Assembly: GCA_951406725.2 (NCBI GenBank)
Contig: OX597815.1
Coordinates: forward strand, 135,222,001 to 135,286,000
Length of the DNA stretch: 64,000 nucleotides
Source of the DNA: Octopus vulgaris
Taxonomy: Eukaryota
Direction of reading: 5' to 3'
A model generated the notes under the pieces. It made no database searches and was not told the origin of the DNA. It saw nothing but the letters and a program-made list of their open reading frames with translations. Made by a program: the position numbers and the translations under genes. Positions 13,344 through 44,400 of the stretch are shown here, piece after piece (the first letter of the stretch is position 1; the number at the start of each line of letters is the position of its first letter).

Positions 13344-13359
13344 ATATATATATATATAT

Positions 13360-13590
13360 CTACCAAGGGTATGAATAAGTATTTCATTTATGTCTTACGT
13401 ATTTATCGCTGAAGAAGGGAAAATTCTTATGAATTAACCCTGAAATTGGGACCAATACAGTAATAACGGATTTTTTAGAAATATCTATCGGCTTGTTTCG
13501 AGACGCATAAATTATAATGGTTATTGACAAATTTGTCTTTTTTTCGGGATATTTGGCATTAGAATTTTTCTTTTGCCCTTATTTTATAAG

Positions 13591-13592
<2 letters not shown>
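13360..13592 (+). mobile_element. ~230-bp hammerhead-bearing element (Penelope-like pLTR or retrozyme-like), between (TA)n tracts
   Basis: Unique segment bounded by (TA)n on both sides; contains a hammerhead core. Confidence 0.55.
13403..13463 (+). ncRNA. Type I hammerhead ribozyme motif
   Basis: CTGAAGA 13409-15; stem II AGGG/CCCT plus AATTC/GAATT; GAAA 13442-45; stem III ATTGG/CCAAT; triplet AUA 13455-57; stem I TTATCG/CAGTAA with one mismatch and one G.U. Confidence 0.75.
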
Positions 13593-13625
<33 letters not shown>

Positions 13626-13629
<4 letters not shown>

Positions 13630-36439: not shown

Positions 36440-38400
36440 CATCATCATCGTTGCTTAACATCTGCTTTCCATGCTGGCATGGGTTGAACAGTTTGACTGG
36501 GGACTGGCAAGCCAGATGGCTATACCAGGCACCAATCTGATCTGGCAAGATTTCTACAGCTGAATGCCTTTCCTAATGCCAACCACTTTGAGAGTGTAGT
36601 GGGTGTTTTTTATGTACCATTGGCACAAGGGCCAGTCAAGTGGTACTGGCATCGACCACAACAGAATGGTGCTTTTTACATGCCACCAGCACAAGAGCAG
36701 TCAAGTGGCACTGGCATCAACCATGCTCAAATGGTACTTTTTATGCGTCACAGGCATGGGTACCAGTTATGTGGTACTGGCACTGGCCACAACAATGACT
36801 TCACTTGACTCAGCAGATCTTTGCAAGCACAGTTTATTGCCCAATGATTGAAGGATACTCTTAAATGGGCCAGTTATGCTGCACTGGCATAGGCCATGGT
36901 TATGGTCTCACTTGGCTTGCCAGGTCTTCTCAAGTACAGCATATTTCCAAAGGTCTCGGTCACTTGTCATCGCCTCCGTGGGGCCCAGCATTAGAAGGTT
37001 GTGCTTCACCACCTCATCCCAGGTCTTCTTGGATCTACTTCTTCCACAGGTTCCCTCTACTGCTAGTGTGTGACACTTTTTCACACAGCTCTCCTCATCC
37101 ATACGCAACACATGACCATACCAGCCCAGTCGCCTCTCTTACATACCATATCTGATGCTTCTTAGGCCCAACTTTTCTCTCAGGGTGCTTATACTCTGTC
37201 GTGTATGCACACTGACATTACACATCCAGCGGAGCATACTAGCTTCATTCTTTGCAAGCTTACACATGTCCTCAACAGTCATGACCCATGTTTCACTACC
37301 ATGTAGCATGGCTGTTTGCATACATGTGTCATACAGTTTACCTTTTACACTGAGCGATGGGCCCTTTGTCACCAGCAGAGGAAGGAGCTCACTGAACTTT
37401 GCTCTGGCTATTTTTATTCTAACAGATACTCTCTCAGAGCTTCTACCTTGATATTGCTGCACCTTTTATGTGTCCATAGCTTAAACTGAGCGCATCTTAT
37501 GGAGTTTCTACCTATGCTTTTTCTAAAGATCGAGCAGAGCCATCTACCTGAAGGGATGTGTGATTTGTCTGCCTTCCTACTTATTAAGACTTTGGTTTTT
37601 GCTAGATTAAGCCCTTTGATTCTAGACCTTGCTTCCACACCTAAAACTTCTCTAGTTCTGATAGTAACAGAGCTATTAGAGCAAGGTCATCAGCATGGAG
37701 GAGCTCCCAGGAACATCCTGTCTTGAATTCCTCTGTTACTGCCTGGAGGACTATGATGAATAAGAGGGGGCTGAGGACTGATCCTTAGTAGACCCCTACA
37801 TGGAATTCTTCACTATACTCATTGCCAACCCACACCTTAATGATAGCATCCCTGTACATGGCTTGTACAGCTCTCACTAACCACTCATCTATCCCTGATT
37901 TTCGCATTAACCACCAGATAAAGGATCGGGGGACTCTGTCAAAGGTTTTCTCCATGTCAACAAAAGTCAGATATAGCGGTTTATCTTTGGCTAGGTATTT
38001 CTCCTGCAACTGTCTTATCAGAAATATAGCATGTGGTGCTTTTCCTTGGTACAAACCCAAACTGCATCTCATCTAAACTATGTCTCTCCCTAATTAGTTG
38101 GGCTATGACCCTCTTTGTGACTTTCATTACCTGATCCAACAACTTGATACCTCTCTAATTATTCGAATCTAATTCATCACTTTTACCTTTGTAGCAGCTG
38201 ACTAATGGTGCTGCTACACCAGTCAGTAGGAATGACTCCATGTATCACCTGACTGACTATCCGTGTGACTAGACTATAGCCAATACCACCAAATATTTTA
38301 AGCATCTCTGCAGTGATTCCTGATGGGCCAGGGGCTTTCCCTGTCTTCATACCCTTAATTGCTTTATCTACCAAGGTACTGTCAATTCAGATAGCTTGTC
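36440..38400 (-). mobile_element. 5'-truncated RTE-clade LINE: RT pseudogene plus complete 3' UTR (source of family A)
   Basis: KAIKGMKTGKAPGPSGI; AIFLIRQLQEKYLAKDKPLYLTFVDMEKTFDRVPR; WELLHADDL; RIKIARAKF..KGKLY..MLHGSETW; VEGTCGRSRSKKTWDEVV; stop at ~36908, then 3' UTR with modules and (GAT)n; frameshifts and an internal deletion. Confidence 0.95.
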
Positions 38401-44200: not shown

Positions 44201-44205
<5 letters not shown>

Positions 44206-44398
44206 TAATCCAAACATGAAAACACAAAGAGAAAACATAACAACGCGAGGATGTGGAACAAATATAGTATTATTGGACGCTCAGGAAGGAAGGAAAGAAG
44301 GAGGGTTTTAAGTTTCGAGCGGAGCTCTTCGTCAGAAACATAGGAAAAGGAAAGATCCAGAGAAGGGAAGACGGAGGAAAAAATCGCCAACGGTACAC

Positions 44399-44400
<2 letters not shown>
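44201..44400 (-). mobile_element. ~200-bp Penelope-like pLTR fragment between (TA)n and (TG)n
   Basis: Pyrimidine-rich minus strand with a minimal hammerhead core and downstream AATAAT; CpGs retained. Confidence 0.6.
44305..44339 (-). ncRNA. Minimal hammerhead ribozyme motif (no helix III)
   Basis: GTTT-CTGACGA-A-GAGC-tcc-GCTC-GAAAC-TTA-AAAC; stems I and II pair. Confidence 0.65.

What the first reader, a model, noticed from the sequence alone, without database searches (positions are those of the whole stretch)
13360..13592. Fully base-paired type I hammerhead ribozyme in a small element sitting between (TA)n tracts
Seen: all catalytic-core nucleotides (CUGAAGA, GAAA, UH) are present and all three helices pair. 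Helix II is AGGG/CCCU extended by AAUUC/GAAUU; helix III is AUUGG/CCAAU with a 2-nt loop; helix I has 5 of 6 pairs. Predicted cleavage is after A13457. Known: type I hammerheads occur in Penelope-like element pseudo-LTRs and in retrozymes, and tight or palindromic helix III points to dimeric cleavage. Inference: this may be a monomer of a cephalopod retrozyme or PLE family that favours TA microsatellites, and it could cut any + strand transcript passing through it.
Basis: partly seen in the sequence, partly recalled or inferred. Interest (0 to 1): 0.72.

Follow-up and report, generated by a model that had tools for sequence, protein, structure and literature searches.

The report
Penelope-spread hammerhead retrozyme, decayed copy
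This is a shortened, slightly damaged copy of a 464-base non-coding repeat that carries a predicted self-cutting RNA motif and has hundreds of copies in the genome, and the shape of those copies indicates that a Penelope-type retrotransposon enzyme likely pasted them into TA repeats from a probably circular RNA.

Summary
The hammerhead motif is real: the only match in 64 kb, 0 of 200 shuffles. 'Fully base-paired' is overstated. This copy has a C·A mismatch next to the cut site and a rare A-U at the base of helix II, and helix III cannot close a 2-nt loop. The 230 bp are half of a 464-nt non-coding unit, with 472 core-intact motifs genome-wide. In 110 motifs the core is nearly fixed (16 of 1210 letters differ), the free N7 position takes all four bases, and one helix II pair covaries. 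Copies form partial tandems and end in TA repeats at two fixed internal sites 88 nt apart. In head-to-head insertions one arm ends at each site (39 of 41), which is the Penelope 'tail' footprint. Copies run through the cut site with no pile-up there, so the template was likely a circle, or else uncut RNA. Verdict: a new family of metazoan non-LTR retrozyme, likely Penelope-mobilised; this copy is probably inert. Cleavage, circular RNA and the partner element were not shown. This scan reported the same anatomy before for other families (360, 485-495 nt) in this genome.

The parts
13363..13592 (+). 5'-truncated single-arm copy of the 464-nt retrozyme unit (unit positions 370-464 then 1-135, counted from the predicted cut)
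   Evidence: 2.8% from the family majority against a median of 3.0%
13403..13463 (+). Type I hammerhead motif; predicted cut between 13457 and 13458 (A-U-A triplet)
   Evidence: only descriptor match, 0 of 200 shuffles; 472 genome copies keep core and helix III
13409..13415 (+). Core CUGANGA, N7 = A
   Evidence: sequence; N7 is A58/G29/C20/T3 in 110 motifs, other core letters differ in 16 of 1210
13416..13441 (+). Helix II: 4 bp, 2x2 A/A loop, 5 bp, 4-nt loop; this copy has A-U at 10.1-11.1
   Evidence: third pair is G-C in 78 and A-U in 19 of 110
13445..13456 (+). Helix III, quasi-palindrome: weak as a hairpin, stable as a two-strand duplex with tandem G·A
   Evidence: +0.5 against -12.3 kcal/mol
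13458..13463 (+). Helix I 3' strand with the copy-specific G-to-A change at 13459 (CpG site) that breaks pair 1.2/2.2
13587..13592 (+). 3' end site A (unit position about 135), inferred internal start of reverse transcription; site B (about 223) is absent from this copy
13345..13359 (.). TA tract on the 5' side, following the (GAT)n tail of a common short repeat
   Evidence: flank repeat has 22 hits in the window
13593..13627 (.). TA tract on the 3' side (insertion target)

Best explanation
The window holds a 5'-truncated, partly decayed copy of a 464-nt non-coding hammerhead repeat (a non-LTR retrozyme) whose copies were likely written into TA microsatellites by a Penelope-like retrotransposon enzyme, probably from a circular RNA. 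Shown: the unit, its copy number, partial tandems, two fixed 3' ends 88 nt apart, head-to-head arms with one end of each kind, TA targets, and a core that is fixed while N7 varies. Inferred: read-through of a copy with two hammerheads would self-cleave (as a dimer or as monomers) into a 464-nt monomer, which a host ligase would circularise. A Penelope GIY-YIG endonuclease would nick both strands of a TA tract, and reverse transcription would start inside the RNA, at site A from one DNA end and at site B from the other. The two cDNAs stop at variable points and are joined head to head; sometimes only one arm is kept, as here. This copy has one hammerhead with a mismatch beside the cut, so it cannot yield a monomer and is probably inert.
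For: Unit: L006 holds two hammerheads 464 nt apart, longest frame 64 aa, GC 31.5%, circular fold z = -5.9. Copy number: 579 exact helix III/cut-site 16-mers (control 2), 844 exact downstream 24-mers (control 0), 472 core-intact motifs (control 0). Constraint. Ends: of 169 distinct pieces, 76 end at A, 61 at B, 32 elsewhere; TA follows within 20 nt in 66 of 76 and 49 of 61, against 187 of 3199 window tiles. Of 59 head-to-head pairs, 41 have both ends at A or B: 39 A+B, 2 A+A, 0 B+B (p = 3.6e-10). In pattern-picked loci 33 of 45 are two-armed. This matches the PLE anatomy in PMC8557442 (passages: partial tandems, inverted 5'-truncated copy, tail at one end) and the two internal RT start sites in PMC11167929 (main text read). 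One template: tandem units agree at 172 of 195 subfamily markers (116.5 expected) and opposite arms at 213 of 237 (141.5 expected); rare letters sit in both tandem units 20 times (control mean 1.5, max 7). Template was not cut linear RNA: 0 of 30 pattern-picked pieces start at the cut and 16 of 30 run through it; one true junction genome-wide. Intact 781-aa RT plus GIY-YIG elements that end in TA repeats exist in the genome.
Against: No cleavage, circular RNA or strand was observed. No partner element with sequence similarity was found among 25 + 20 GIY-YIG loci. The tail is about 88 nt, against 30-40 nt in described PLEs and about 36 nt in the local 781-aa family. Some insertions are mosaics of different hammerhead haplotypes (L039, L043, L052 in tandem; L034 between arms), which one circle cannot give without template switching or later conversion. 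The longest piece is only 2.03 units. Sharing of letters between units also fits a homogeneous linear source or gene conversion. Marker counts reflect a few subfamily events, not independent changes. Rfam models do not score the motif. Only 1 of 9 predicted Xenopus retrozymes cleaved in vitro (bioRxiv 10.64898/2026.07.22.740005, results read).
Confidence: 0.65

Rival explanations
1. Same element and same Penelope enzyme, but the template is an uncut linear transcript of a genomic partial tandem; the hammerhead cleaves rarely or late, and circles are not the intermediate.
For: All junctions are intact; the longest piece is 2.03 units; some insertions carry different haplotypes in their two units. 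In PAc, uncut RNA was the main substrate in vitro and ribozyme mutants still inserted (PMC11167929, main text read).
Against: The core is fixed while N7 and a helix II pair vary between subfamilies, so cleavage mattered to source lineages. Rare letters are shared by both units in 10 loci. Mussel, coral and axolotl retrozymes accumulate as circles (PMC7229834, results read).
Confidence: 0.22
2. The copies are pseudo-LTR fragments of an autonomous Penelope-like element that I did not sample.
For: All insertion hallmarks are PLE hallmarks. Similarity searches score only the best 40 candidates. Xenopus retrozymes resemble pLTRs (bioRxiv 10.64898/2026.07.22.740005).
Against: Long copies continue upstream into the previous unit and close on a 464-nt period, with no frame over 64 aa. 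No similarity to 45 GIY-YIG loci beyond one nested insertion. Metazoan PLE hammerheads are mostly minimal forms (PMC4209133, results read), whereas this one has full helices.
Confidence: 0.07
3. A SINE-like element mobilised by a LINE (for example RTE or CR1) through ordinary 3'-end priming.
For: The window copy sits between two copies of a common short repeat with (GAT)n tails. LINEs were left open as partners in PMC7229834.
Against: Two fixed internal ends, permuted tandems and inverted arms that each end at a priming site; the 3' ends do not lie at the cut or at a shared tail.
Confidence: 0.03
4. This particular copy is a working host regulatory ribozyme that cuts + strand transcripts.
For: The core is intact, and 10.1-11.1 is still a pair.
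Against: It has ordinary divergence (2.8%), a mismatch beside the cut, and an active fold 8.2 kcal/mol above the ensemble, against 5.8 and 6.7 for two intact copies. The A-U pair is explained by two common independent changes (Fisher p = 1.0 for linkage). No host transcript was examined.
Confidence: 0.03

Closest known systems
Metazoan non-LTR retrozymes (Cervera and de la Pena 2020, PMC7229834: coral 220-240 bp, mussel 350-390 bp, axolotl 330/350 bp; results and discussion read)
   Same: Non-coding, GC-poor repeat unit with one type I hammerhead per unit, head-to-tail copies, strongly self-paired predicted circle.
   Different: Unit of 464 nt, just above their 150-450 bp range. Dispersed, mostly under two units, and usually two-armed rather than in long arrays. 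Long helix II with an internal loop and a 4-bp palindromic helix III. That paper leaves the mobilising element open (LINE or PLE). Circles and cleavage were shown there, not here.
Vertebrate non-LTR retrozymes as non-autonomous PLE derivatives (Li, Clavereau and Pollet 2026, bioRxiv 10.64898/2026.07.22.740005; abstract to discussion read, supplements closed)
   Same: Proposed PLE dependence; unit length within their 51-972 bp; many monomeric dispersed copies.
   Different: Their evidence is co-occurrence and pLTR similarity. Here no pLTR similarity was found, and the link rests on insertion anatomy. No mollusc is among the groups their text lists.
EN+ Penelope-like elements (Craig et al. 2021, PMC8557442, passages; Frangieh et al. 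2024, PMC11167929, main text)
   Same: 5' truncation, partial tandems, inverted 5'-truncated copy, tail at one end only, microsatellite targets, two internal RT start sites downstream of the hammerhead.
   Different: No RT or endonuclease; tail about 88 nt instead of 30-40; full-helix hammerhead. PAc in vitro showed no difference in start site between the two strands, whereas here arms pair A with B in 39 of 41.
Dimeric type I hammerheads of amphibian satellite repeats and PLEs (PMC4209133 results read; PMC7229834)
   Same: Palindromic helix III that pairs far better between two motifs.
   Different: Helix III has 4 bp rather than 1-2, so monomeric cleavage is not excluded.

Membership tests
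Type I hammerhead ribozyme | Core CUGANGA, GAAA, UH in type I order | tested here: met
   472 genome copies
Type I hammerhead ribozyme | Helices I, II and III around the core | tested here: inconclusive
   Family: each helix I and II pair is kept in most of 110 motifs; 39 of 76 motifs have core and all helices intact. Window copy: 5 of 6 in helix I with the mismatch next to the cut; helix III marginal as a hairpin
Type I hammerhead ribozyme | Match to an Rfam hammerhead model | tested here: not met
   no hammerhead family even at E<=10. The long helix II may be the cause (inference)
Type I hammerhead ribozyme | Sequence constraint as function predicts (core fixed, N7 free, covariation) | tested here: met
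   16 of 1210 core letters differ against 52 of 110 at N7; helix II G-C to A-U in 19 of 110, probably one subfamily event
Type I hammerhead ribozyme | Loop I-loop II tertiary contacts | not tested
   no analysis run
Type I hammerhead ribozyme | Self-cleavage | not testable with these tools
   needs in vitro transcription
Metazoan non-LTR retrozyme | Repeat unit of a few hundred bp with one type I hammerhead, head to tail | tested here: met
   464-nt period; up to 2.03 units. The window copy itself is half a unit
Metazoan non-LTR retrozyme | Non-coding, GC below 50% | tested here: met
   longest frame 64 aa in the closed unit; GC 31.5%
Metazoan non-LTR retrozyme | Highly self-paired predicted circle | tested here: met
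   -119.1 kcal/mol, 63% paired, z = -5.9 on + and -3.8 on - (100 shuffles each)
Metazoan non-LTR retrozyme | At least two consecutive complete hammerheads in source-competent copies | tested here: met
   4 of 14 tandem loci examined keep both exact motifs; not met by the window copy
Metazoan non-LTR retrozyme | No LTR, primer-binding site or polypurine tract | not tested
   no LTR-type layout seen, but no PBS or PPT search was run
Metazoan non-LTR retrozyme | Expressed as circular RNA | not testable with these tools
   only assembled contigs were available
Autonomous Penelope-like element | ORF with RT and GIY-YIG endonuclease | tested here: not met
PLE-type insertion | Partial tandems and inverted 5'-truncated copy at the 5' end | tested here: met
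   59 head-to-head pairs; 33 of 45 pattern-picked loci
PLE-type insertion | Tail at one end only, from two internal RT start sites | tested here: met
   39 of 41 A+B; length 88 nt, longer than the described 30-40
PLE-type insertion | Microsatellite or AT-rich target | tested here: met
   115 of 137 A/B ends followed by TA, against 187 of 3199 background tiles
PLE-type insertion | Identified partner element sharing terminal sequence | tested here: inconclusive
   none among 45 of 148 GIY-YIG matches fetched; N-terminal-endonuclease clades were not targeted

The most novel reading that the evidence does not exclude
Two-armed insertions record a Penelope enzyme engaging one circular ribozyme RNA at two fixed internal sites 88 nt apart, one site per cut DNA strand. 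The PLE tail would then be the footprint of asymmetric two-ended priming on a single RNA, and the roughly 100-nt A-B segment would be a portable signal that lets a protein-free circular RNA be written into the genome by a Penelope element it does not resemble in sequence.
Probability: 0.4. Interest if true: 0.65.

Novelty: new member of a known kind. Interest (0 to 1): 0.45.

Why it matters
Which element mobilises animal retrozymes was left open in PMC7229834 and was supported only by co-occurrence and pLTR similarity in the 2026 preprint. This family gives a countable footprint, one arm ending at each of two fixed sites in 39 of 41 insertions, that points to Penelope machinery and defines the RNA segment to test in an existing in vitro PLE assay. 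It also predicts strand-asymmetric priming, which was not seen for PAc in vitro. The single copy in the window is of little importance by itself.

Tried and rejected
Rfam: no hammerhead match. Window frames of 100 aa or more: 37, none recognised by eye as linked to the element (no family scan run on them). Partner search: the first Pfam accession I tried (recalled) is not in the library; PF01541 gave 148 matches, 45 were fetched, and none resembles the unit except L073, where a copy sits inserted just after a PLE. A diverged variant seen in run contigs has one genomic match, 83% identical and without the hammerhead. Expression: no RNA holder listed. Contigs of four runs guessed to be RNA hold family pieces, but they cannot show strand, ends or circles, so they were not used as evidence. 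Whether a host transcript crosses the locus remains unexamined. Pile-up of 5' ends at the cut: 2 matches, one of them only point changes, against 12 at a control position. The control region is itself a TA-rich hotspot (11 of 118 arm starts) and includes at least one small deletion, so this shows absence of excess, not depletion. 'Circle is locked against cleavage': rejected, since the active fold costs only 1.6-3.4 kcal/mol in 4 circles. 'The A-U at 10.1-11.1 is compensatory': rejected. Chimeras at the cut site: markers stay linked across it in most of the motifs listed; L039 and L043 have breakpoints compatible with it but not resolved. Equal 5' starts of both arms: 4 of 59, shuffled mean 1.2, 168 of 5000 shuffles as high; weak. 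Pol III promoter: a B-box-like 9-mer is conserved, but 12 T-runs lie on the sense strand, so it was not adopted. Literature searches listed no paper describing this family or two-site footprints in retrozymes; the library lacks most subscription journals, Repbase/Dfam were not searched, and no supplements were read.

Full report
1. Observation. A full type I descriptor matches once in the 64-kb window on both strands and in 0 of 200 dinucleotide shuffles. The 81-nt region folds with z = -2.5, but its lowest-energy fold is not the active one. Rfam does not score it. The title overstates the pairing. Helix I has a C·A mismatch at the second pair from the cut. Helix III cannot close with a 2-nt loop; as 4 bp plus a GGAC loop it scores +0.5 kcal/mol, while two copies pair at -12.3.

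2. What it is. The 231 bases hit 52 places at 91-100% identity among 40 scored of 2263 candidates. One locus (L006) has two hammerheads 464 nt apart, which defines the unit. It has no frame over 64 aa, and as a circle it folds at z = -5.9. Counting from the predicted cut, the window copy is positions 370-464 plus 1-135. Exact patterns give whole-genome counts: 579 for helix III plus the cut site, 844 for a downstream 24-mer, and 472 for core plus helix III (controls 2, 0, 0). Copies differ from the majority by a median 3.0%, and the window copy by 2.8%.

3. Is the ribozyme under constraint? Among 110 complete motifs from 100 loci, the 11 fixed core positions differ in 16 of 1210 letters, while N7 is A58, G29, C20, T3. 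The third pair of helix II is G-C in 78 and A-U in 19, and a G·U in helix I becomes U-A in 6. In the first 76 motifs the helix II change is linked (p = 5e-8), but it is probably one subfamily event. That N7 is the one free core position is established knowledge (recalled). The pattern suggests that source lineages needed a working ribozyme (inference). The window copy carries two rare states: C·A in helix I (5 of 110) and A-U at 10.1-11.1 (2 of 110). Its active fold lies 8.2 kcal/mol above the ensemble, against 5.8 and 6.7 for two intact copies.

4. Insertion anatomy. I analysed 122 locus records, with duplicates collapsed. Of 169 distinct pieces, 76 end near position 135 (site A), 61 near 223 (site B) and 32 elsewhere; the two classes cover 49 of 464 positions. 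TA repeats follow within 20 nt in 66 of 76, 49 of 61 and 11 of 32, against 187 of 3199 window tiles. 5' ends are scattered. There are 59 head-to-head pairs; 18 have an end outside A and B and were left out of the test. Of the other 41, 39 are A+B, 2 A+A and 0 B+B (p = 3.6e-10). The first 60 loci were picked by similarity. In loci picked by pattern in genome order, 33 of 45 are two-armed, and the pairs first met there are 19 A+B, 0 A+A or B+B, and 11 other. PMC8557442 (passages) describes partial tandems, an inverted 5'-truncated copy and a 30-40-bp tail at one end as PLE features. PMC11167929 (main text) shows that the tail lies between two internal RT start sites. The window copy is a single arm ending at A.

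5. Template. Tandem units within an insertion agree at 172 of 195 subfamily markers (116.5 expected), and opposite arms at 213 of 237 (141.5 expected). Rare letters occur in both tandem units 20 times in 10 loci (control mean 1.5, maximum 7 of 200), while 176 rare letters are in one unit only, as post-insertion decay would give. So most insertions come from one sequence variant. A cut linear monomer would end every cDNA at position 1. Instead 0 of 30 pattern-picked pieces start there and 16 of 30 cross it, and a targeted search found one true junction genome-wide (control 12, itself a hotspot). That one locus, L167, has both arms starting exactly at the predicted cut, as a cleaved RNA would give, but one case is within chance. 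The template was thus a circle or an uncut multimer. I favour the circle because the core is constrained and related retrozymes accumulate as circles (PMC7229834, results and discussion read). Against it: the longest piece is 2.03 units, and L039, L043, L052 and L034 mix haplotypes.

6. Monomer or dimer. In 4 tandem copies with both motifs exact (of 14 loci tried), the dimer fold costs 2.6-4.7 kcal/mol over the minimum, and one monomer fold costs 7.8-10.7. In the circles the monomer fold costs 1.6-3.4. Dimer cleavage is plausible in precursors, but dependence on it is not shown.

7. Partner. GIY-YIG matches number 148 among 150 scored of 6136 candidates. They include intact 781-aa frames with RT and C-terminal GIY-YIG and a CxxxxCxxC motif before the endonuclease, which PMC8557442 (passage) ascribes to the Neptune and Nematis clades. 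That family ends in TA repeats, with a tail of about 36 nt in 3 of 12 copies. None of 45 fetched loci resembles the unit. The enzyme class is present; the partner is unidentified.

8. Comparison and verdict. It works like a non-autonomous PLE passenger and meets the sequence-level features of metazoan non-LTR retrozymes; cleavage and circles are untested. It is not an autonomous PLE. Six literature searches listed no description of this family or of this footprint in retrozymes. I read no supplements; those of PMC7229834 and the closed ones of the 2026 preprint may list related repeats. Earlier AI notes of this scan describe the same anatomy for 360-nt and 485-495-nt families in this genome. 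I had reached my reading before that look-up, and I did not check their families. A look-up by sequence and by place found no note on this family. New member of a known kind; interest 0.45.

Noticed in passing
window 44201-44400 (- strand; motif starts at 44335): Minimal hammerhead-like motif (core, one bulged base, 4-bp helix II, GAAA) in a different repeat of about 200 bp ending at a TA tract; 15 hits in flanks of fetched loci. Likely a PLE terminal fragment.
   Followed up: partly
L167 (G000:C1:175404125-175407147): Two-armed insertion in which both arms begin exactly at the predicted cut, separated by 8 bases; the single best hint of cleavage in vivo, but not above chance.
   Followed up: partly
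L039, L043, L052, L034: Mosaic insertions carrying different hammerhead haplotypes in their units or arms, suggesting template switching, trans-ligation or gene conversion.
   Followed up: partly
L164, L165, L163; many near-identical GIY-YIG matches: Young PLE family with intact 781-aa RT plus GIY-YIG frames, a variant hammerhead-like core with U3 and A8 (a covariation reported in PMC4209133), TA targets and a tail of about 36 nt.
   Followed up: partly
L073:2825-3264: A two-armed retrozyme insertion sits directly in the TA tract at the 3' end of a 781-aa PLE copy.
   Followed up: partly
unit positions 274-282 (L006): Conserved B-box-like 9-mer; the promoter of the element is unknown and T-runs argue against full Pol III transcription.
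   Followed up: partly
unit positions 49-56 and 345-375: 5' ends cluster at 49-56 (11 of 118 arm starts), and several single arms, including the window copy, start at about 370 inside a long hairpin; the latter is partly a query bias.
   Followed up: no
L061 (G000:C11:86404321-86407350): Diverged copy (83%) of unit positions 49-229, pointing to an older subfamily.
   Followed up: partly
window 37116-37465: Frame fragment resembling the end of a LINE-type RT protein, similar to text in L150; identification by eye only.
   Followed up: no
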